Below, in pieces: positions 14,096-61,572 of a stretch of DNA of 64,000 bases. The stretch is from a virus. The stretch covers positions 72,080 to 136,079 of the IMG/VR virus record IMGVR_UViG_3300049491_000383; one strand, given 5' to 3'. Position 1 is the first letter of the stretch, and each line of letters opens with the position of its first letter. A program made the position numbers and the translations under genes. The notes below the pieces were generated by a model, which worked only from the letters and a program-made list of their open reading frames with translations, was not told the DNA's origin and did no database searches.

Positions 14096-15529
14096 TTAGA
14101 AGTCGTAACGCTGGACCATGACGGTCTTCAGCATGATGCTGATCGGTGTCATTTCTTCACCACCTAGCACTGACTTAACAATGCTTGGAGAGAAGCCAGA
14201 CACAAGAGCTGCACCAGCCTTGTTATAGGTCACCGGGCTGTTACCGGCGCGGCCGTTCAAGTTCCAGAATACAACCTGCGGTACCTTGTACCCTGCAGCC
14301 TGATATTCCTTCTCGATGAACTCCATCGCCGATACGCTAACCGGGCCGCCGCCTGTCGAGTAACGACCGCTCTTACCAGTACCACCCGAAGTGATGCACT
14401 GGTCGAATTCCATGTCCGACAAGATCAAGACCTTTGTCGGCATTTCCTTCTGCGGAACCTTACCCTTGATTGCGGCAGACAAGATTAACTTGAATACTGC
14501 ACCCAGGTCGGTGTTCATTCCCCAATCCGAACGTTCCATCTGGTTGAAACGCTGTTCCAAAGTACCAGACAACTTTACCATCTGTGGCGAACCAGAGAAA
14601 GTAACGAACTGATCCTTGAACACACCACCCATACGCTCGGAAGTGTACAGGCCAAGTGATACAGCTACGTCCAGCGCAGTTACGCTACCGGATACGGCCA
14701 CACCGCTCATCGAGCCCGAAACGTCAACAACCGGTAGGATGTTTTCGTCAGAACCTTCCAAGTAGTTAGGCAATGCCTTCCACTGTGCGTTTGCAACAGC
14801 CTTGTCACCGTTACGAAGCGAACGGATCACATCGTAAGGGTACGCAACCGAAGCGTTGATCTTGGCTTCACCAGATTCCAACTTCTCCTTGTACTTTGCG
14901 TAACCGGCCGGGTCGTGCTTCAAGAATGCCTTCTGGTAACGACCAGCAGCAACTGAAGGAACGTGTGGGTACACGATTCCAGTCCAGTCCTGAGCGCACA
15001 TCTTCTGTTCAACAGTGTTGGACAGACCGACCAAAAGCTTACGGTAAGCCTTAGGAGTCAACTTCATGTACGAACGGATCTTGTTGGCTTGTTCGCCCTG
15101 ACGCGGCATCCACTTCGCGCACAGACCGTCTTGCACGTCGTTCAACGCGAAAGCAATCATGCGCAGAGCATCACGCTCCAGCACAGTACCAAAAGTCATC
15201 AAGACGTCGTCCCAACGACCAAGTTCGGGAACCTTCACCAACAGGCGTTCTGCAAGCTTCGGCTCGGAACGGATTACGTAACCGAACAGCTTACGGAAAG
15301 TTTCACGCTCACCCGCACCACCACGTGCGTCACGAGCCCATTCAAGGACACGGATCGCAACTTCGGAGTCTTCCACCAAAGCACCTGCGAAAGTGCTTGT
15401 GATGTCCTTACCACGGCTTGCACCGGCCAAGAAGAAGAGGTCCACGTTCTTGTTCAAAGACGAGGAGTTTGTAACTGCGCCGTTGGAAGTTACTGCGGAT
15501 GCGTTTACGGCTTCAAATAGTGTTGTCAT
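14096..15529 (-). CDS. DUF2828-type Ro60/TROVE-like protein with C-terminal vWA domain
   Basis: T.NGA...SS...VDLFF, RD.RGG.GER, GRWDD, AKWMPR, MIDAS DVSGSM, TDL..VF, SDMEFD, VFWNL, VSGFS. Confidence 0.85.
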   Translation of the reverse strand: MTTLFEAVNASAVTSNGAVTNSSSLNKNVDLFFLAGASRGKDITSTFAGALVEDSEVAIRVLEWARDARGGAGERETFRKLFGYVIRSEPKLAERLLVKVPELGRWDDVLMTFGTVLERDALRMIAFALNDVQDGLCAKWMPRQGEQANKIRSYMKLTPKAYRKLLVGLSNTVEQKMCAQDWTGIVYPHVPSVAAGRYQKAFLKHDPAGYAKYKEKLESGEAKINASVAYPYDVIRSLRNGDKAVANAQWKALPNYLEGSDENILPVVDVSGSMSGVAVSGSVTALDVAVSLGLYTSERMGGVFKDQFVTFSGSPQMVKLSGTLEQRFNQMERSDWGMNTDLGAVFKLILSAAIKGKVPQKEMPTKVLILSDMEFDQCITSGGTGKSGRYSTGGGPVSVSAMEFIEKEYQAAGYKVPQVVFWNLNGRAGNSPVTYNKAGAALVSGFSPSIVKSVLGGEEMTPISIMLKTVMVQRYDF

Positions 15530-15546: not shown

Positions 15547-15666
15547 AGAATCAGTTTTACTTTGCCTGCTGCTCTACCAACTGAGCTACCTCACTATTTC
15601 TAGTGAAGGCGGGACTCGAACCCACGACCGTCTGGTTATATTAAGTTTTGTTGCGGAATTGATTCT
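15547..15666 (-). ncRNA. YrlA-like circularly permuted tRNA mimic closed by the CMGCAA helix (family member A)
   Basis: AGAATCA-ATTCCGCAAC...T-arm GTGGG-TTCGAGT-CCCGC, acceptor stem closed by GAAA, D-arm GCTC-AGTTGGTA-GAGC...TGATTCT. Confidence 0.8.
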
Positions 15667-15724: not shown

Positions 15725-15823
15725 AGATTAGCTTTTGGCGAGTTTTTGCTTTCCCCTCCGGAAAGGTTCTTTGACCCGAAGGCCAAATAGTTCATGGTTT
15801 TATTTTGTTGCTGTAACTAATCT
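15725..15823 (-). ncRNA. CAGCAA-helix RNA with two internal hairpins (member B)
   Basis: AGATTAG-TTACAGCAAC...TTTGGCC-TTCG-GGTCAAA, CTTTCC/GGAAAG...CTAATCT. Confidence 0.7.
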
Positions 15824-15845
15824 TTAGTGTTTGCAAGTGTCTACT

Positions 15846-16226
15846 TTATACTTCTTCCACAATCTCGTCAATGAATTCAGTTACGTATCCGGGGTTTGGG
15901 CAACTTACAGCCGGGTCAACAAGAATTGTTGCTCCAATTGTAATCTCTTCATCGTCGGAATCAACCAACTCATAAGAGATATAGTAACCACCGGTGCCTG
16001 TAAACGAATGCCATTCATCGGGGAGTTCAACCTTGAGTTGCTTCTCTTTGATGATTACCTTAGCATTATTCATTGCACCCCTTCGAATCATCTCCTGAAT
16101 GCTTTTCATTACATCAAAAACATTCTGGGGTTCCGAAGGCCATTTAGTAACGCTCGTATTCTTCTCCCAAATAAAGGCTGCGGCCTCGTGTAAGGCTGCG
16201 AGAGGATACGATACATTAACAATCAT
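15846..16226 (-). CDS. hypothetical protein embedded between family RNAs
   Basis: 126-aa ORF. Confidence 0.55.
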   Translation of the reverse strand: MIVNVSYPLAALHEAAAFIWEKNTSVTKWPSEPQNVFDVMKSIQEMIRRGAMNNAKVIIKEKQLKVELPDEWHSFTGTGGYYISYELVDSDDEEITIGATILVDPAVSCPNPGYVTEFIDEIVEEV

Positions 16227-16251
16227 TGTGCTTCTTTCTAAAGTAGAAAAC

Positions 16252-16511
16252 AGAGTGATGTCAGGGACAAACTTTTCATCCGGAGATTACTAACTTTGCT
16301 AAGAGAGCCTAACCCCTCGTTCGAACCTTTTACATCGTCCTAGGATGTTTGCTGTACGTAACATCTGGTTTCAACGCCATGCTTCTTGAGGCTATAGCTC
16401 CACCAGAATTACTAATGCACACCTTCAACGGGTTGCCCCTCCACTATGCATCTTTTAACCAGCGCCATGATACGGATTTTACGCCGTGAATTGGTTTGCT
16501 GTATTCACTCT
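16252..16511 (-). ncRNA. large CAGCAA-helix RNA with two nested motif copies (member C)
   Basis: Outer AGAGTGA-ATACAGCAAA...TCACTCT; inner GATGTTA-CGTACAGCAAA...TGACATC. Confidence 0.65.
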
Positions 16512-16529: not shown

Positions 16530-16559
16530 ATTATATAGTGTGTTTACTTATCCCGTCAA
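16530..16559 (-). promoter_or_regulatory. sigma70-type promoter for the RNA/DUF2828 operon
   Basis: TTGACG-18 nt-TATAAT. Confidence 0.6.
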
Positions 16560-16597: not shown

Positions 16598-17344
16598 TTA
16601 TTTTTGCGATTGGACGTGTTGTAACTCTTTGTCAATGAAATCTGCACCACGCTTCAAAAGCCGCTTATAATCCGGAGAATTATTTTTATCTCGGAACATG
16701 CCTGCTACGTCATGTACTTCTAATTCATACTTGAGCATTTTGTGTGCCTTGTTTCGTGCCTCAATCTGTGGCAGGGCTGCAAGACGTTTGATCTTTGGTA
16801 CAAGAGAATTTAGGACTTGGACAAATCTAGCATTTATTTCTGCAGGCTGCGCCAGATACTTCATATCTGGAGCATAAGGATCGTTCTTCGACTTTCTATA
16901 TTCTTTATCTTTAGGAGTTGAATATCGCTTACTTGCTGCTACTCTGTATTCAGATTTAACATCGTCCAACATGTGTCTAAGTTCATGAGCTATCGTAGAC
17001 TTCATGAAATCCGATGATAGATAATCAGAGTTAAATATCATTGATTTAGTATTTGCATCCCAGAGGCCGCCAGGTGCATCTTTAGTGCCCGGATTTTCTT
17101 TTCTGACACGATCCAATAATGCAGAGTCGGACATGATGACAATCTTTATGTCATCTATTCCCTCAAATGGTGTGTCGAGGATTTGCCCAATCTTCCCTAC
17201 ATACAATGTTTCAGTATTTTCGTCGTCCCAATCTAAATCCTGATCTGCATATTTTTGCAGGAAAGAATAAAGCGGGTCAGCTAGGGAGATTAGTGCCCTA
17301 TCTTCTTCTGTAGTTTCAACTAGGAATAATTCTTGCAGTCTCAT
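16598..17344 (-). CDS. zincin-like metallopeptidase-motif protein
   Basis: HELRH motif and Y...P.EINAR. Confidence 0.55.
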   Translation of the reverse strand: MRLQELFLVETTEEDRALISLADPLYSFLQKYADQDLDWDDENTETLYVGKIGQILDTPFEGIDDIKIVIMSDSALLDRVRKENPGTKDAPGGLWDANTKSMIFNSDYLSSDFMKSTIAHELRHMLDDVKSEYRVAASKRYSTPKDKEYRKSKNDPYAPDMKYLAQPAEINARFVQVLNSLVPKIKRLAALPQIEARNKAHKMLKYELEVHDVAGMFRDKNNSPDYKRLLKRGADFIDKELQHVQSQK

Positions 17345-17939: not shown

Positions 17940-19025
17940 TCAATCCTCTTCCTTTAATAGGAATTTGTTGCTGATGGTTTTGAAACTAAAACCACCATCC
18001 ATTCTCTTGTAAACAAGACCTTCACGAATCGCATGCTTGATGCTAGGACCTTCTGCAAATGCAAGCAACTTATCCACATCAAACAACCCGAATTCATACA
18101 ATGGAACATCCATATGCAGAACAGGGACATGATGTACCATCTCGCGATTTACACCTCGTGCCCAAAGCTCATCCAAAATCAGATGACGTTCTCTCGGAGG
18201 TACATAACCACCTGTGGTAATATTGAAGATGTCAAACACAAACAATTTATGCGAAGCAAATGCCTCACGATTCTTCTGTATACCCGGGCCCATGAGCTCA
18301 GCTTGTACAGCAAAATCTCTGTCAAAAGAGCGCATAATATCGTGTAGCCCGCTGTCTACAAACATGCGTACCAAACTATTGTGCTCGTTTTTAGGATCAT
18401 CCAACTTCAGTTCCCAATTACGACCGCAAACACCCGGAACACCATCCTTTACAAATGCAGTAAAGGAAGTACCATCGAACTTCATGCTGATTTCGTAACG
18501 TGCATCCGCGTTATCAACAAAGATATCGCGCTTCATGTTTTGGCAACGTTCCTGATCAGTCTTTCGAATGAATGCAGGGAAGTTACCCTTCACTTGACCA
18601 GCAAGTTCTGTAGGAATGGCAGCTTCATACTTCTGGATATCCAACAAGTCAGATACGTCGGTGCCGACCATAAAGAACTCTGAAAGTTCCTGTCCTTCAT
18701 CTTCGTCGGAATCAATAAAGTCGTTGAAGAACAAATTCACAGGTAATGCAAGGCCCTGGCTGAGCTGACCACGCAACTTAATAGTCTTGATACGGAAACC
18801 CTCACGCTCTCCCATTCTCTTGGAGGAGTTTCTGCGCAAGATTTCGAATTCGGGACGGACAGGCAAATGGCTGTCGATTTCAAAGTAGACACACAAATCG
18901 CCCACATTGAATTCAGACTTCTTTACCACGCATTGCCAGCCATCAATTTTTGCCAGCTGAACTAAGTCCGCACCTTCGATAGGTAGCAGATCATCAATCC
19001 TACGTATTGTTGCAAGCTTTCTCAT
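17940..19025 (-). CDS. ATP-dependent RNA ligase, DRB0094/Rnl5 family
   Basis: N-terminal OB fold (I.GAD..., YFEIDS, KLRGQLSQGL), KTDQER, motif I KFDG, EGLVYK, SFK.IS. Confidence 0.9.
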   Translation of the reverse strand: MRKLATIRRIDDLLPIEGADLVQLAKIDGWQCVVKKSEFNVGDLCVYFEIDSHLPVRPEFEILRRNSSKRMGEREGFRIKTIKLRGQLSQGLALPVNLFFNDFIDSDEDEGQELSEFFMVGTDVSDLLDIQKYEAAIPTELAGQVKGNFPAFIRKTDQERCQNMKRDIFVDNADARYEISMKFDGTSFTAFVKDGVPGVCGRNWELKLDDPKNEHNSLVRMFVDSGLHDIMRSFDRDFAVQAELMGPGIQKNREAFASHKLFVFDIFNITTGGYVPPRERHLILDELWARGVNREMVHHVPVLHMDVPLYEFGLFDVDKLLAFAEGPSIKHAIREGLVYKRMDGGFSFKTISNKFLLKEED

Positions 19026-30596: not shown

Positions 30597-30898
30597 ATTA
30601 TGAATGTTGTAGTGTCGAAATCTTCAGAATGTGTGGGCTCATCGACTAAGCTAAGGGACTTGCACCCTATCCGATATACTATTTCTAGTAGTGACCATTG
30701 CTTCTGCTAGACATTTTCTACAACGAAATTTTTACTCAATAGCCGAAAGTTGATCAAGGGTGATCTTGTATCCGTTATACACAAAATAGGGGCCTGTATC
30801 ATCCACTCTGTGAGCGTCAACCTTCTCTGCTTCCGTCAATTTCTTAAATTCTTTTACGTCTTCTAACGATGCTTGTTCCATTTTTTTATCCTTATATC

Positions 30899-30951
30899 AG
30901 AATGCTTATTTTCAAATTACAAGTTTGATTTTTAGTTGCTGAACGCATTCT
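30899..30951 (-). ncRNA. CAGCAA-helix RNA with Thr(UGU) anticodon stem-loop mimic (member D)
   Basis: AGAATGC-GTTCAGCAAC...TCAAA-CTTGTAA-TTTGA...GCATTCT. Confidence 0.75.
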
Positions 30952-31255
30952 TCAAGACTTCGTAACTGCGTCGTCTGTATTTATCACATTTCTACGGTTA
31001 AATTAGAATGACTTAAACCGCTTTTTCACCAATTCTACAATGTACAAGGACTCTTAGAAATTCCAGATGTGCGCCGGATATTCGCCTGCACTCAATGGGC
31101 CAATTATTCCCACATACCAACCGCCAACTTATTACACAATTTAGATCAGCGCGATGGGCACTTCGATATAATCACCTCGGTCGATAACCGATACTAATTA
31201 GGGTGAAAGATTTATATCAAAACGTTTTGGTATCGGTCGGGCCGTACCGGTCACT

Positions 31256-34902: not shown

Positions 34903-34978
34903 TGGCGCGTTGTCGGGGGATCGAACCCCGTCACCTTCAGATTTAGAATCCGCCGCTCTCCCACTGAGCTAACAACGC
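34903..34978 (-). tRNA. amber suppressor tRNA (anticodon CTA)
   Basis: Full cloverleaf, anticodon arm GCGGA-TT-CTA-AA-TCTGA, G73, CCA. Confidence 0.85.
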
Positions 34979-37094: not shown

Positions 37095-37200
37095 GTTTTC
37101 CTTTCTTACAGCACACTGAGTAAGTGCTCAATAGTTTAAAACTCAGTTAGGTACCCACTGTGGGCAAAACTATTTATCACCGGCACAAAATTATGCCAAA

Positions 37201-37222
37201 GAAAATGGGGCCGAAGCCCCAT
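37201..37222 (-). terminator. terminator after tmRNA
   Basis: ATGGGGC-TTCG-GCCCCAT followed by TTT. Confidence 0.75.
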
Positions 37223-37610
37223 GGTATTTTGGTTTACAAGGTATAACCTACCCCGGAGTCTAGTGTTTCTTAGGCAGCTAGGAGCATCATGTCGCTATCA
37301 GCCAAGGCTGAAAGGTCAAGAGCTGTCTCAGTTGTAATTGCGTTTGCTTTTACGGTTTGTGCTTGATTTACGGTCATCGCCTACCGTGTTGTCCACTCTC
37401 GTACTCTTTACCCCGTCGAATACCTGGTCCGCCCCATTATTAAACATACCGTGAAAAATTCGAATTCTCTTTCCTGCCCATACAACAGGTGACCGTCTTT
37501 AAGCTGGAGTCGAACCAGCAATAACCCATTCGATATGTTTAATGGTGGAGCGGGCGGGAATCGAACCCGCGTCCGGAACACTTTTCTGTTCGCTTCATAC
37601 AACAATAACT
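37222..37610 (-). ncRNA. ssrA: circularly permuted (two-piece) tmRNA
   Basis: The T-arm and ...CGCTCCACCA end (37543) lie upstream of the 5' end GGGGCGGACCAGGTATTCGAC (37435). G3:U70 is present. The tag ORF at 37347-37270 reads ANAITTETALDLSALADSDMMLLAA*. Confidence 0.9.
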
Positions 37611-37639
37611 AACTACTTTATAGCATTCTATTTATCTTG

Positions 37640-38159: not shown

Positions 38160-38828
38160 TTACCACATTAAATCGAAGTAACCTCTCATTACCTTACTAA
38201 CTGTAGCACTTGCACCAGTGTTGTGATCTTTTACACTATCATCCTGAAAACGATATGTACGGATCTTATCACCACGCATGCCAGATCCGACCTGTTGTTT
38301 ACGATCACTATCTAGGTTCTGTTTGAACTCTCTGCGTGCTTGTGAACTAAGTGTCTCTAGCAGTGCTTGTTTCGCCGATTCTAGGCTATTTTGCCTAGAA
38401 CGACATTGTGCTGTGGCAGTCTGGCCTGTAGGCAAATACGTCATACGACACGAATTTTGATGTTTATTTCTGTGTTGGCCGCCTGCACCTGTGCCGCTAT
38501 ACCATTCAATTCTAAAATCAGATTCCTTGTATTCTTCTACACGCAATTCGGGATCAGTGATCGCAACTGTTACGGTGCTGGTATGAACTCTGCCTTTGCG
38601 CTCTGTTGGAGGTACTCGTTGAATACGGTGACCACCTGCCTCATTCTGTAACTTAGATAAATCTGTGCCAACTACTTCTAAAAAGATTTCGCCCGGCACT
38701 TCCTTAACTATGCGATTGATTCAGCCGACTCTATCGCAGTGTCGTTGGTATGCTTGAGCAAGATCCATTGCGAATAGCTTGCTATCTTCTCCGCCTTCGG
38801 CGGCACGTATTTCAATAACTCTCTTCAT
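38160..38828 (-). CDS. prfA: RF1-like class I peptide chain release factor lacking domain 1, with in-frame TGA at codon 36
   Basis: SD GGAGG and ATG at 38828; EIRAAEGGEDSKLF...VG*INR; HRIQRVPPTE (PxT), GAGGQH, RSRQ.S, KIRTY.F. Confidence 0.85.
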
Positions 38829-50433: not shown

Positions 50434-50444
50434 ACTGTATAGAC

Positions 50445-50501
50445 AGAATACGTTTTATTTTCAATTAAAAGTTGATTTTTTGAAATTGCTGAATGTATTC
50501 T
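50445..50501 (-). ncRNA. CAGCAA-helix RNA with Lys(UUU) anticodon stem-loop mimic (member E)
   Basis: AGAATAC-ATTCAGCAAT...TCAA-CTTTTAA-TTGA...GTATTCT. Confidence 0.75.
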
Positions 50502-50511
50502 TTAGAAAACT

Positions 50512-54969: not shown

Positions 54970-54980
54970 ATAAAATAATC

Positions 54981-55036
54981 AGGATACCTTTTTGCTTTTT
55001 TACAGAAAAGTTGATTTGGGTTGCGGAATGTATCCT
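54981..55036 (-). ncRNA. CCGCAA-helix RNA with Tyr(GUA)-like loop (member F)
   Basis: AGGATAC-ATTCCGCAAC...CTTTT-CTGTAAA-AAAG...GTATCCT. Confidence 0.7.
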
Positions 55037-55099
55037 TTAGAAACAGTGACCGGCTTTATCATTATATCAGATAGTGATTATAAAGCTCTCGGCCGAAAA

Positions 55100-58470: not shown

Positions 58471-58482
58471 ATTGAATAAAAC

Positions 58483-58598
58483 AGGTTCGCATTATACGTG
58501 CTACCACTACACTAAAGCGACGACCAACCTCGCTCCCAGGACTCGAACCTGGCCCTTCCATTTTCAAGATGAATAATTTTTGTTGCTGAAACGAACCT
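58483..58598 (-). ncRNA. circularly permuted tRNA(UGA) closed by the CAGCAA helix (member G)
   Basis: AGGTTCG-TTTCAGCAAC, TTCAT-CTTGAAA-ATGGA, T-arm CCAGG/CCTGG, looped acceptor GAGCGA/TCGCTT, D-arm, CGAACCT. Confidence 0.8.
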
Positions 58599-58615
58599 AA
58601 CGGTCGAAATAAATC

Positions 58616-58717
58616 AGGATGTTTGGCTTTGGACCAGGAGTCGAACCCTATTGCCATGCCCCCTCTGGGCTGGTCCGCTGAGTTTTGGTAGCGATTTTAG
58701 ATTGCTGAAACCATCCT
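58616..58717 (-). ncRNA. CAGCAA-helix RNA with T-loop domain (member H)
   Basis: AGGATG-GTTTCAGCAAT...GG-TTCGACT-CC...CATCCT. Confidence 0.7.
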
Positions 58718-58724
58718 TTAAACT

Positions 58725-60359: not shown

Positions 60360-61388
60360 TTACGCTGGGACGTTAACCCAGATCATCAGGCCCATTCCCT
60401 TGGTCAACTTACGGTTAACCGACGTGGATTGCACGTAGATTTCGTAGTTGGCATGGTTGCCCGGAGCAAGCTTGACATCGCCGGAGTGCGGGAGGCCGAG
60501 CAGGTCGCGTGCATTGAAGCCACTGTAGACAGCACCGGACGTCTTGTCACGGATGGCAATCTGTTTGTAGCCCTGGACGGTTTCAGTCTTCTTCAACTCG
60601 TAGAACGCACAGCCCTTTGTAAAGGTAATGCCCTGGTCGTTGACGAAATCACGAATCTGTGCGCCATCATTGGCAGCATCCACTTCGTAGACTTCAACTT
60701 GCTTGGAGATGTCAACCAACTCGGTCTTCACTTCCTTCAGGGTCACATTGCTCAGGTCCGCGTAGAACTTGTCGGTTGCATTGATACCGCGTGCCTTGGC
60801 AGCATAAAAACCCTTGAAAGCACTCTTGGTCATCACAGTCGACGCAGCAATACCACGTTCCGATTGTTCCCATTCCTGGATGTTGCCTTCCGGAATACCG
60901 TATTGGGTAAGCTGATGCTTATAGCCCGCAGGTACTCGGAACACAAATGTCCAACGATCGGTCATTTGCAGCTTCTTGATCAGCTTCGCAATTGCCGGAC
61001 CGGTGTACTTGCGACTTGCATTTTCGCCACCGTCAGTTGTGGTGAACACCACAAAGGATACGCTGGGATCATCCGCATCGGGCACTGCCTGGAGTTGTTC
61101 AACCAATTCACCCACTGCATCAAACAGCGGAGTACCACGTCCACGAGCACTGTAGCTAGACTCCAGCAACGGCTTCAGTGCCGAAACAGAGGAGTTACTA
61201 ACGACAGTACGCACTTCATCAGTGCTGCCGTATCCAAGTTCGACCACAGTCACAACGGTATCAATACCGTGGGTGGCTGCTTCTTCCTTGATGGATTCAA
61301 TGTTTTCGTTGTAATCACGTGCGGCGTGGCGTGCAATGTTAGCCATCGAGCCGGAGTGATCTCGTGCAAGTCCTTGGTATACTTTCAT
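60360..61388 (-). CDS. vWA-domain protein
   Basis: MIDAS DHSGSM, TPLFDAV, TTDGGENAS; C-terminal VQSTSVNRKL. Confidence 0.85.
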   Translation of the reverse strand: MKVYQGLARDHSGSMANIARHAARDYNENIESIKEEAATHGIDTVVTVVELGYGSTDEVRTVVSNSSVSALKPLLESSYSARGRGTPLFDAVGELVEQLQAVPDADDPSVSFVVFTTTDGGENASRKYTGPAIAKLIKKLQMTDRWTFVFRVPAGYKHQLTQYGIPEGNIQEWEQSERGIAASTVMTKSAFKGFYAAKARGINATDKFYADLSNVTLKEVKTELVDISKQVEVYEVDAANDGAQIRDFVNDQGITFTKGCAFYELKKTETVQGYKQIAIRDKTSGAVYSGFNARDLLGLPHSGDVKLAPGNHANYEIYVQSTSVNRKLTKGMGLMIWVNVPA

Positions 61389-61455
61389 GTGTGCCTTTCT
61401 GTTTGATGTAGTGAATCTACCTCTACACTATAATACAGTTGGCTCTTTGTGTCAA

Positions 61456-61572
61456 TGGTGCCGCCGCCGGGAATCGAACACCGGATCTACTCCTTGTAAT
61501 GGAATTTAGATTGCTGTATGTATCCTTGACAGGATCACCTTTTTAGTTGTGTTGCCTTTACACTACAGCGAC
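61456..61572 (-). ncRNA. CCA-ending tRNA(UAC)-like RNA with the CAGCAA helix inserted between the D and anticodon arms (member I)
   Basis: GTCGCTG/CGGCGGC-A-CCA, D-arm, insert ATCCT-GTCA-AGGAT-ACATACAGCAAT, TTCC-ATTACAA-GGAG, T-arm. Confidence 0.78.

What the first reader, a model, noticed from the sequence alone, without database searches (positions are those of the whole stretch)
15725..16511. Two further family RNAs in the same operon, one with nested motif copies
Member B (15725-15823) carries a cUUCGg hairpin and a second hairpin inside the helix. Member C (16252-16511, about 260 nt) has an outer helix AGAGTGA/TCACTCT and an inner GATGTTA/TGACATC, each followed by TACAGCAAA, plus a CTGGTT/AACCAG-closed middle domain. 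C could scaffold two protein copies. The RNAs flank a 126-aa unknown ORF that may be a third component.
Basis: partly seen in the sequence, partly recalled or inferred. Interest (0 to 1): 0.7.

Follow-up and report, generated by a model that had tools for sequence, protein, structure and literature searches.

The report
Phage Y-like RNAs beside Ro-like protein
Two small folded RNA genes in a giant phage are real and conserved, and they belong to a family of RNAs that probably dock on the neighbouring Ro60-like protein, much as Y RNAs dock on Ro60 in bacteria and animals.

Summary
Both elements exist at the stated coordinates, on the minus (gene) strand. B (15725-15823) and C (16252-16511) are conserved structured RNAs. 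Across 44 distinct B and 40 distinct C-core sequences from related uncultured phages, the closing helices, internal hairpins and one loop-to-3'-strand pseudoknot in each RNA are kept through compensatory changes.

Both carry the same 5' module: a closing stem followed by UWCMGCAA. At least 7 further RNAs in the window share this module, as do RNAs beside DUF2828 genes down to 43% protein identity.

The neighbouring DUF2828/DUF7788 protein has a full-length Ro60 (TROVE ring plus vWA) fold. My reading is a phage Ro-like RNP with an array of Y-like RNAs, which is a new variant of a known kind.

- The inner GATGTTA/TGACATC helix is not supported.
- The CTGGTT/AACCAG closure is not supported either.
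- The second TACAGCAAA copy occurs in this phage only.

C's middle domain is an optional insert with two k-turn-like arms. The 126-aa ORF is a real gene, but it is present in only 14 of 35 relatives. Nothing here shows expression or binding.

The parts
16530..16559 (-). sigma-70-like promoter upstream of C (TTGACG, 18 nt, TATAAT)
   Evidence: 11 of 12 hexamer matches. Relatives show TTGACA..TATAAT at the same place. A consensus match only, with no transcript data.
16252..16511 (-). Member C, 260-nt structured RNA
   Evidence: Orthologs in related loci. Consensus structure and pair counts.
16505..16511 (-). C closing helix P1, 5' strand (AGAGUGA). It pairs with 16252-16258.
   Evidence: 7 pairs, 100% of cells paired, 3 pairs with changes on both sides.
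16495..16503 (-). C family motif UACAGCAAA directly 3' of P1
   Evidence: Present at position 12 in 13 of 13 C orthologs as NNC[ACU]GC[AC]A. Same spacing as in 8 other window RNAs.
16358..16494 (-). C middle domain, an optional insert: a small hairpin (16487-16472), k-turn-like arm 1 (16452-16414) and k-turn-like arm 2 (16412-16358)
   Evidence: Absent in L001 (127-nt C). Helices covary in the 6-sequence subgroup. The k-turn reading rests on a recalled consensus.
16348..16356 (-). Second UACAGCAAA copy at the junction between the insert and the core
   Evidence: Only in the window among 12 long C sequences. Relatives have CAAC(R)AAC there.
16332..16348 (-). C hairpin P2 (ACAUC, loop CUAGGAC, GAUGU)
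   Evidence: 98.4% paired, 3 of 5 pairs with double changes. The loop may pair with GUUC at 16326-16323 (all four pairs in 31 of 38, mostly one-sided changes).
16303..16318 (-). C hairpin P4, whose loop GUUAGG (16313-16308) pairs with CCUGAC (16265-16260) to form a pseudoknot
   Evidence: P4 is 96.9% paired with 4 of 4 pairs compensatory. The pseudoknot pairs in 240 of 240 cells, with 3 pairs showing double changes. It was not part of the search model.
15846..16226 (-). 126-aa ORF, an accessory gene between C and B
   Evidence: Homologs at 32-67% identity, always between C and B, in 14 of 35 distinct stretches. No Pfam or PHROG family.
15843..15871 (-). Weak promoter-like site upstream of B
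   Evidence: 9 of 12 matches. Some relatives have TTGACA upstream of B. Weak evidence.
15725..15823 (-). Member B, 99-nt structured RNA
   Evidence: R1 model hits of 82-118 bits in relatives. Pair counts.
15808..15823 (-). B closing helix 5' strand (15823-15816, pairs with 15732-15725) followed by the motif UACAGCAA (15815-15808)
   Evidence: P1 is 98% paired, with A-U to C-G in 9 of 44 sequences.
15770..15787 (-). B variable hairpin P2 (UUCG loop in the window)
   Evidence: A hairpin of different sequence sits at this place in 15 of 15 orthologs folded.
15737..15765 (-). B H-type pseudoknot: hairpin CUUUC/GAAAG (15765-15761 with 15753-15749), with loop GGAGGG (15759-15754) pairing to CUCGCC (15742-15737)
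   Evidence: the hairpin is 99.5% paired. The loop pairing has 4 of 6 pairs with double changes (G-C to A-U in 8 sequences) and one conserved A.G position. It was not part of the search model.
15548..15666 (-). Member A, a family RNA with a permuted tRNA-like core (outside the finding; gives context)
   Evidence: Rfam YrlA scores 35.8 bits, below the cut-off of 69. R2 scores 24.9 bits.
14096..15529 (-). DUF2828/DUF7788 protein, 477 aa, with a Ro60-like fold
   Evidence: Pfam. AF2 model pLDDT 78.7. Foldseek hits 12 Ro60/TROVE chains at E 7e-10 to 9e-5, full length.
16598..17344 (-). 248-aa conserved phage protein, a constant upstream neighbour of C
   Evidence: tblastn hits directly upstream of C in the close-clade loci. 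Only a faint metalloprotease lead.
17940..19025 (-). RNA ligase (PHA02142 OB fold plus RNA_ligase), upstream on the same strand
   Evidence: Syntenic in 19 loci, including the 47%-identity clade L024/L025.

Best explanation
B and C are stable non-coding RNAs transcribed on the minus strand: C from a strong sigma-70-like promoter, B perhaps from its own weaker one. They are two specialised members of a phage RNA family built like Y RNAs.

Each member has a terminal 5'/3' helix whose sequence is free but whose pairing is kept. The helix sits between AAAG on its 5' side and CUG plus a U-rich tail on its 3' side, and the single-stranded element UWCMGCAA follows its 5' strand directly.

I infer that this shared module is the docking site for the neighbouring DUF2828/DUF7788 protein, a ring-plus-vWA protein with the Ro60 fold. 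The variable interior of each RNA would then be its cargo or adaptor:
- A: a tRNA-elbow mimic.
- B: an H-type pseudoknot with an A-rich linker.
- C: a pseudoknotted core, plus in most phages an inserted domain with two k-turn-like arms.

By analogy with Ro60/Y RNA particles, the RNAs would gate the ring or tether it to other factors (host exoribonuclease, the syntenic phage RNA ligase) for RNA surveillance or repair during infection.

Shown here: the RNAs' conservation and structure, the shared module, the genomic linkage and the protein's fold. Inferred: transcription, RNA ends, binding and function. My odds: about 0.9 that B and C are functional structured RNAs, and about 0.6 for the whole statement including docking on the Ro-like protein.
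For: Structure:
- B, 44 distinct sequences: P1 98% paired, hairpin 99.5%, pseudoknot with 4 compensatory pairs, 0 of 500 shuffles (the MAFFT-only version is).
- C core, 40 distinct sequences: 98.2% paired, 14 of 20 pairs compensatory, pseudoknot 240 of 240 cells.

Family:
- Model R2 was built from 10 small members and none of A, B or C. In the 137-kb record it finds 7 hits, all on the gene strand and all in the window, including B (38.3 bits, E 1e-4) and A (24.9 bits, E 0.05).
- The 5' module pattern gives 9 hits, all on the minus strand and including C, against 0.40 expected. The pattern was derived after seeing 8 of them.

Linkage:
- In 25 DUF2828 loci, 56 of 57 R2 hits lie on the DUF2828 strand. 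32 of 50 non-training hits lie within 700 nt of the gene, and 22 of 25 loci have a hit.
- Module-bearing RNAs abut DUF2828 genes of 43-51% identity.
- B's invariant core occurs in 21 IMG/VR stretches, and all 21 contigs carry DUF2828 on the same strand; in L055, the one checked for position, the gene lies downstream of B.

Protein:
- Full-length Foldseek matches to Ro60 of Thermus phage phiLo, Xenopus, human and Deinococcus.

Precedent:
- Phage phiLo Ro60 binds two Y-like RNAs encoded upstream of its gene (PMC12135203, passages read).
- YrlA-type RNAs lie within 4 kb and on the same strand as TROVE proteins, and share a short 5' motif (PMC4201824, passages read).

A-type members resemble YrlA below threshold: 35.8 bits here and 40.1 bits in L033.
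Against: - There is no evidence of expression, RNA ends or binding.
- The shared 5' motif is not the GNCGAA-type Ro60-binding motif. The protein matches no TROVE Pfam model and no Ro60 by sequence.
- R2 could not bridge C, giving only a 10-bit partial alignment at E about 1 and 21-22 bits for two C orthologs. C's family membership therefore rests on the shared 5' and 3' ends read by eye and on the post hoc pattern.
- 18 of 50 non-training R2 hits lie more than 700 nt from DUF2828, and 5 of the 7 R2 hits in this record lie 14-37 kb away among tRNA genes. The module does not need to be adjacent to the gene.
- 3 of 25 loci had no hit: L031, L035 and phage KVP40.
- The A8 and A10 alignments were fitted to the model structures, which favours the modelled helices, though not the pseudoknots.
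Confidence: 0.6

Rival explanations
1. The shared stem and flanks are a processing or stability cassette (release from polycistronic tRNA-region transcripts, protection of the ends). The RNAs would act on their own, for example as tRNA-part decoys or sponges for host factors, without the DUF2828 protein. Adjacency would then only reflect the gene order of the tRNA region.
For: 5 of the 7 R2 hits in this record lie among tRNA genes, 14-37 kb from DUF2828. 18 of 50 non-training hits are more than 700 nt from the gene. The flanks AAAG and CUG plus U-rich tail are conserved outside the helix. Earlier scan notes list YrlA-like mimics in phages with no recognised Ro60 (not checked here).
Against: Module-bearing RNAs cluster next to DUF2828 across 43-87% protein identity: 32 of 50 hits fall in about 17% of the flank space. 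B's core is found only in DUF2828 contigs, 21 of 21. The Ro60 fold of the protein predicts exactly such RNA partners.
Confidence: 0.2
2. One reading: C holds two nested copies of the protein-binding module (an outer and an inner helix, each followed by UACAGCAAA) and carries two protein copies, with the 126-aa protein as a third component.
For: Both 9-mers and both helices can be drawn in the window sequence. Phage phiLo Ro60 binds its two Y-like RNAs with different stoichiometries and can dimerise (PMC12135203, abstract and passages). The ORF sits between C and B wherever it occurs.
Against: The inner helix is 73% paired and competes with P1 and the pseudoknot, both 100% paired. The second motif copy is in 1 of 12 long C sequences. 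The ORF is absent from 21 of 35 distinct stretches.
Confidence: 0.08
3. B and C are cis-acting leaders (riboswitch or attenuator) that control the downstream ORF or the DUF2828 gene.
For: C follows a promoter and precedes the 126-aa ORF in the window. B holds a GGAGG run inside a hairpin loop.
Against: In 16 of 35 relatives C is followed within 44-69 nt by B, with no ORF between. Family members also stand alone among tRNA genes. No Rfam riboswitch matches. The GGAGG run pairs in a covarying pseudoknot and has no start codon at a suitable distance.
Confidence: 0.05
4. The elements are DNA-level repeats (miniature mobile elements with terminal inverted repeats) and not functional RNAs.
For: Many copies exist, each bounded by short inverted repeats with conserved flanks.
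Against: Between copies and between orthologs the inverted repeats change sequence but keep complementarity, G-U pairs included. 56 of 57 hits are on the gene strand. Internal hairpins and pseudoknots covary.
Confidence: 0.03

Closest known systems
Bacterial Ro60 (Rsr) with YrlA/YrlB Y RNAs, e.g. the Salmonella rsr-yrlBA-rtcBA operon (PMC4201824, passages read; Rfam RF02553)
   Same: Several small RNAs are encoded next to and on the same strand as a Ro60-fold protein. Each has a terminal stem plus a short conserved 5' motif and a variable interior. One member (A) has a permuted tRNA-like core. An RNA ligase gene lies in the same block.
   Different: The protein is a DUF2828/DUF7788 type, not a TROVE Pfam member. 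The motif is UWCMGCAA, not GNCGAA. B and C have no tRNA-like domain and match no Rfam family. The ligase belongs to the RNA_ligase family, not RtcB. The setting is a large phage with 55 tRNA genes and a tmRNA.
Thermus phage phiLo Ro60 with Yrl1 and Yrl2 (PMC12135203; PDB 9KOP, 9L5Y)
   Same: A phage-encoded Ro60 with two Y-like RNAs just upstream of its gene. It is the best structural match of the window's protein (E 7e-10, TM 0.54-0.55).
   Different: 18% sequence identity. The phiLo RNAs were picked by a CGAA motif and a stem-bulge-stem shape. Here there is a different motif, pseudoknots, k-turn-like arms and a much larger family.
Metazoan Y RNAs (Y1, Y3, Y4, Y5)
   Same: Paralogous small RNAs that share a protein-binding terminal stem and differ in the interior.
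   Different: No sequence or motif similarity. The metazoan stem has a conserved sequence with a bulged nucleotide, whereas here the stem sequence is free and the adjacent single strand is conserved.
Multi-copy Y RNA arrays noted earlier in this scan (e1-7023091, e1-5268164; AI notes, not checked here)
   Same: One scaffold carries different cargoes, in arrays beside Ro60 and an RNA ligase.
   Different: Those are TROVE-type bacterial loci with tRNA-mimic cargoes. B and C carry pseudoknot and k-turn-like cargoes in a phage.

Membership tests
Y RNA class (Ro60-associated small RNAs) | Encoded close to and on the same strand as a Ro60-fold protein | tested here: met
   B and C lie 200-1000 nt upstream of a protein with a full-length Ro60 fold. 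The linkage is kept in relatives.
Y RNA class (Ro60-associated small RNAs) | The 5' and 3' ends form a terminal stem that is shared by paralogs, with a variable interior | tested here: met
   Covarying P1 in B and C. Shared module in at least 9 window RNAs.
Y RNA class (Ro60-associated small RNAs) | Known Ro60-binding sequence (GNCGAAN0-1G in bacteria; the GGUCCGA helix in animals, as quoted in PMC4201824) | tested here: not met
   The conserved element next to P1 is UWCMGCAA. There is no YrlA or other Y RNA match over B or C at E up to 10.
Y RNA class (Ro60-associated small RNAs) | Physical binding to the Ro60 protein | not testable with these tools
   Needs pull-down or gel-shift experiments.
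YrlA (Rfam RF02553) | tRNA-like domain (T arm, closed acceptor stem, D arm) and a score above the gathering cut-off of 69 bits | tested here: not met
   B and C give no match and no tRNA-like call. Neighbour A scores 35.8 bits and L033's A-type 40.1 bits, both below the cut-off.
Ro60/TROVE protein family (the neighbouring gene) | HEAT-repeat ring plus vWA domain | tested here: met
   The AF2 model (pLDDT 78.7, pTM 0.70) aligns over 504-578 columns to 12 Ro60/TROVE chains at E <= 1e-4. Lower rows are vWA domains.
Ro60/TROVE protein family (the neighbouring gene) | Sequence match to Pfam TROVE or to solved Ro60 proteins | tested here: not met
   Pfam gives only DUF7788 and DUF2828 at E <= 0.01. 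phmmer against PDB sequences finds no Ro60.
H-type pseudoknot (B and the C core) | A hairpin loop pairs with a downstream strand, kept through compensatory change | tested here: met
   B: 4 of 6 pairs with double changes. C: 240 of 240 cells paired, 3 pairs with double changes in 4 cells. Neither pairing was in the search models.
k-turn (C middle domain) | A helix, a 3-nt bulge, then tandem G.A pairs opposite a GA on the other strand | tested here: inconclusive
   The sequence signature GGA-[helix]-NNN-GAA is present in 5 of 6 (arm 1) and 6 of 6 (arm 2) subgroup sequences, and the flanking helices covary. Similar signatures appear in L010 and L009. The consensus is recalled, not taken from a tool, and the 3D kink cannot be tested here.
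RelE/ParE fold (126-aa ORF) | Beta-alpha-alpha-beta-beta fold matching solved toxins with a clear score | tested here: inconclusive
   Model pLDDT 69.3. Foldseek finds nothing at E <= 0.001. In the VIA-align wide search 10 of the top 15 rows are ParE/RelE/YoeB-type toxin chains, at Z 6.3-4.1. This is below the level the tool calls reliable.

The most novel reading that the evidence does not exclude
The DUF2828 Ro-like protein and this RNA family would form a phage 'tRNA-part display' particle. One docking scaffold would present separate pieces of tRNA:
- Elbow mimics (A-type members).
- Anticodon-stem-loop mimics. Small members carry 7-nt loops that read as U33-NNN-A37 with UUU, UGU, GUU, GUA and others. 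UUU, UGU and GUU are the three tRNAs cut by the PARIS nuclease AriB.

B and C would be the non-tRNA adaptor or regulatory members of the family. The particle would decoy or sense host anticodon nucleases and couple to the syntenic RNA ligase for repair.
Probability: 0.15. Interest if true: 0.85.

Novelty: new variant of a known kind. Interest (0 to 1): 0.62.

Why it matters
Ro60/Y RNA particles are known from animals, bacteria and a few phages, always with TROVE-type proteins and one recognisable RNA motif. DUF2828 proteins are widespread in large phages, where they are annotated only as 'RNA-binding protein'.

This locus gives that protein family a concrete and testable set of RNA partners:
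- a different docking module;
- a large family, with at least 9 members in 64 kb;
- two members whose cargo is not a tRNA mimic but a pseudoknot (B) and a pseudoknot plus k-turn-like arms (C).

The locus sits in a block with an RNA ligase, 55 tRNA genes, a tmRNA and a peptidyl-tRNA hydrolase. It may therefore bear on how giant phages protect translation from host RNA-targeting defences.

Full-text searches for DUF2828, Ro60 with phage and Y RNA, YrlA with bacteriophage, and anticodon stem-loop mimics or decoys found no description of these RNAs. Rfam 15 has no match.

Tried and rejected
- **RNA runs:** The look-up of sequencing runs (kind rna) listed no RNA holder.
- **Rfam over B and C:** at the gathering threshold and at E up to 10, nothing appeared except chance-level snoRNA rows on the opposite strand.
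- **phmmer of the protein against PDB sequences:** no Ro60. The fold search was needed.
- **My own stem-plus-motif regex scan of the genome:** uninformative. It gave 6 minus-strand and 5 plus-strand hits against about 1.9 in shuffles, and recovered only 2 known members.
- **A first pattern with the wrong spacing:** 0 hits.
- **The loose 8-mer WCMGCAAM alone:** only mildly enriched, 29 against 17.6.
- **R2 on C:** it cannot span C's long interior.
- **KVP40 (L040):** no model hit, although its 90-nt upstream spacer holds UUACAGCAA and a T-arm-like hairpin. Not pursued.
- **The 126-aa ORF:** Pfam, PHROGs and the ESM Atlas gave nothing usable.
- **The 248-aa ORF:** only faint metalloprotease-like leads.
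- **Pairing of the AGCAA motif with UUGCU in C's insert:** RNAalifold draws it, but it never varies and is broken in the window, so I set it aside.
- **The search of earlier findings by place and by sequence:** nothing returned.
Full report
**Setting**

The window is the last 64 kb of a 136-kb linear virus record. It carries 55 tRNA genes and a permuted tmRNA, all on the minus strand. Genes around the finding are also on the minus strand. In transcription order the block is:
- an RNA ligase (17940-19025)
- a 128-aa ORF
- a 248-aa ORF (16598-17344)
- C
- the 126-aa ORF
- B
- a third RNA, A
- a 477-aa DUF2828/DUF7788 protein (14096-15529)
- an HNH endonuclease
- tRNA-Gly
- a non-specific nuclease

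**Observation**

Read on the minus strand, B (15823..15725) closes with AGAUUAGU/GCUAAUCU and holds a UUCG-capped hairpin and a second hairpin. C (16511..16252) closes with AGAGUGA/UCACUCU and contains UACAGCAAA twice. So the coordinates and the drawn features are correct.

Folding energies alone are not striking: z is -2.26 for B and -1.66 for C. No Rfam family matches either element.

**Relatives**

The DUF2828 protein retrieved 37 IMG/VR loci at 41-87% identity and 78 metagenome loci. BLAST and covariance models found B and C upstream of the gene throughout the clade with roughly 72% identity or more.

**Member B**

Results agree between a MAFFT alignment of 14 sequences and a model-based alignment of 52 hits, 44 of them distinct.
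- The closing helix pairs in 98% of cells. It shows A-U to C-G in 9 sequences and three pair types at its inner end.
- The CUUUC/GAAAG hairpin pairs in 99.5% of cells, with two compensatory events.
- The hairpin loop GGAGGG pairs with CUCGCC six bases downstream. Four of these six pairs show double changes, including G-C to A-U in 8 sequences, and one A.G position is kept.
- That pseudoknot was not in the search model, so its support does not depend on the fit.
- None of 500 shuffles reaches the observed scores, and slid partners drop to 30-53% paired.
- The hairpin between the motif and the pseudoknot changes sequence freely but is present in 15 of 15 orthologs folded.

B is therefore a closing stem, an A-rich strand starting with UACAGCAA, a variable hairpin and an H-type pseudoknot with an A-rich linker.

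**Member C**

In 13 full-length orthologs the outer helix pairs in every cell, with three compensatory pairs. A model of the 3' core found 48 copies, 40 of them distinct. In those:
- 98.2% of cells pair and 14 of 20 pairs show double changes.
- The loop of hairpin P4 (GUUAGG here) pairs with CCUGAC just before the outer helix in 240 of 240 cells, with three covarying positions.
- A second loop-strand contact (GGAC with GUUC) is plausible. All four pairs form in 31 of 38 sequences, but mostly through one-sided changes.

One relative (L001) has a 127-nt C in which the family motif runs straight into the core. The 137-nt middle domain is therefore an insert.

Within a six-sequence subgroup the insert folds into a small hairpin and two long arms. 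Each arm carries GGA on one strand and a three-base bulge followed by GAA on the other, around a capped helix. I recognise this as the k-turn signature from memory and could not test it.

- The inner helix GAUGUUA/UGACAUC pairs in 73% of cells. Its 3' strand overlaps the outer helix and the pseudoknot.
- Its 5' strand belongs instead to arm 2. AACCAG pairs with UUCUGGU (97.6% paired, 5 of 7 pairs compensatory, 0 of 500 shuffles).
- AACCAG does not pair with CUGGUU (86% paired, 165 of 500 shuffles as good).
- The second UACAGCAA sits at the insert-core junction only in this phage, 1 of 12 long C sequences. Relatives have CAAC(R)AAC there.

**The family**

The B model gave weak extra hits, all on the gene strand. 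On inspection these share the following layout:
- AAAG
- a 6-8-bp helix of free sequence
- UWCMGCAA
- an A-rich strand
- a variable interior
- the return strand of the helix
- CUG and a U-rich tail

A model (R2) was built from ten small members and none of A, B or C. It finds seven hits in the whole record, all minus-strand and all in the window. They include B (38.3 bits), A (24.9 bits) and new members at 54970-55043 and 58605-58724.

R2 cannot span C. C matches the family at its two ends and in the fixed-spacing 5' pattern, which gives 9 hits against 0.40 expected, all minus-strand. I wrote that pattern after seeing eight of the nine.

**Linkage to DUF2828**

In 25 non-redundant loci:
- 56 of 57 R2 hits are on the DUF2828 strand.
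- 32 of 50 non-training hits lie within 700 nt of the gene.
- 22 loci have at least one hit. L031, L035 and KVP40 have none.

Module-bearing RNAs abut DUF2828 genes of only 43-51% identity, for example five in tandem upstream in L033. B's invariant core occurs in 21 IMG/VR stretches, and all 21 contigs carry DUF2828 on the same strand.

Against a strict operon view, five of this record's seven R2 hits lie far from the gene, among tRNA genes.

**The protein**

Pfam sees only DUF7788 and DUF2828, and sequence search of the PDB finds no Ro60. An AlphaFold model from 15 homologs (pLDDT 78.7) nevertheless aligns over its full length to twelve Ro60/TROVE chains. The best is Ro60 of Thermus phage phiLo (E 7e-10), followed by Xenopus, human and Deinococcus Ro60. 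Lower rows are vWA domains.

From passages read, phiLo Ro60 binds two Y-like RNAs encoded just upstream of its gene (PMC12135203). Bacterial YrlA RNAs lie within 4 kb of TROVE genes on the same strand and share a short 5' motif, GNCGAAN0-1G (PMC4201824). Jumbo phages are noted to carry TROVE proteins (PMC7824862, one passage).

Member A's core matches Rfam YrlA at 35.8 bits, and the A-type RNA of L033 at 40.1 bits over the whole model. Both are under the cut-off of 69.

**Mechanism**

I read the shared stem plus UWCMGCAA as the docking module for the Ro-like ring, and the interiors as cargo or adaptor domains. The module's position matches that of the Ro60-binding module of Y RNAs, but its sequence differs. 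B and C would be the counterparts of Y RNAs that lack a tRNA-like domain.

Their partners and purpose are inferred only from context: the RNA ligase and the 248-aa protein are syntenic, and the region is rich in translation-rescue genes.

**The 126-aa ORF**

It is a real gene, with 28 invariant residues among four homologs at 32-55% identity. When present it always lies between C and B. It is found in 14 of 35 distinct C..B stretches, and in 16 others the gap is only 44-69 nt.

Its model (pLDDT 69) gives no Foldseek match at E <= 0.001. A wide structural search puts ParE/RelE-type toxins on top at Z 6.3-4.1, which the tool itself rates as inconclusive. I treat it as an accessory gene at an insertion hot spot, not a core component.

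**Limits**

- No RNA data were available.
- Binding is untested.
- The model-based alignments lean towards the modelled helices.
- C's family membership has no E-value.
- The k-turn assignment is recalled, not tested.
- Supplementary tables of PMC4201824, which list phage YrlA loci, were not opened. They might include DUF2828-type phages.

Noticed in passing
window 50434-50508, 30888-30958, 54970-55043 (minus strand); L030:5938-6010, L033:3785-3858, L033:3350-3422, L032:3753-3827, L034:5544-5615, L024:3913-3983: Small family members (65-80 nt) carry one hairpin with a 7-nt loop shaped like an anticodon loop: U at position 2, A at position 6. The loops read UUU, UGU (twice), GUU, GUA (twice), UUC, GCA and GAU. 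UUU, UGU and GUU are the three tRNAs cut by the PARIS nuclease AriB (PMC12409363, abstract). This may be chance in AU-rich loops.
   Followed up: partly
window 58478-58601 (minus strand): A second YrlA-like RNA: T arm, closed acceptor-like stem and D arm inside a GGUUCG/CGAACC closing helix, with UUUCAGCAA after the 5' strand. The B model found it at 25.4 bits.
   Followed up: partly
window 61380-61540 (minus strand): The ninth hit of the 5' module pattern is followed by a T-arm-like hairpin and a GCACCA end, but has no clear return strand. It may be a degenerate or different family member.
   Followed up: no
L001:1652-3687: In this relative the DUF2828 match spans 2036 nt and a single-frame translation of the whole span shows 11 stop codons. 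The gene seems interrupted, for example by an intron or a homing-endonuclease insertion.
   Followed up: no
L003:3694-3834, L011:3016-3156, L022:3105-3272: A further conserved family member of about 140-160 nt (closing helix GGRUAG/CUAUCC) sits between C and B, or replaces B, in some relatives.
   Followed up: no
L040 (Vibrio phage KVP40, NC_005083.2 169720-169810): The 90-nt spacer upstream of KVP40.0300, a DUF2828 homolog annotated as 'RNA-binding protein', holds UUACAGCAA and a T-arm-like hairpin on the gene strand. It got no model hit. KVP40 is a cultured phage in which the idea could be tested.
   Followed up: partly
window 34903-34978 and 37179-37635 (minus strand): ARAGORN calls a tRNA with anticodon CUA (labelled Pyl, i.e. 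an amber suppressor-type tRNA) and a permuted tmRNA. A gene with release-factor domains (RF-1, PCRF) lies at 38160-38699.
   Followed up: no
window 16598-17344 (minus strand): The 248-aa protein directly upstream of C is conserved at that place in nearly all close relatives. It belongs to phage-only clusters with no named family, and has only faint metalloprotease-like leads.
   Followed up: partly
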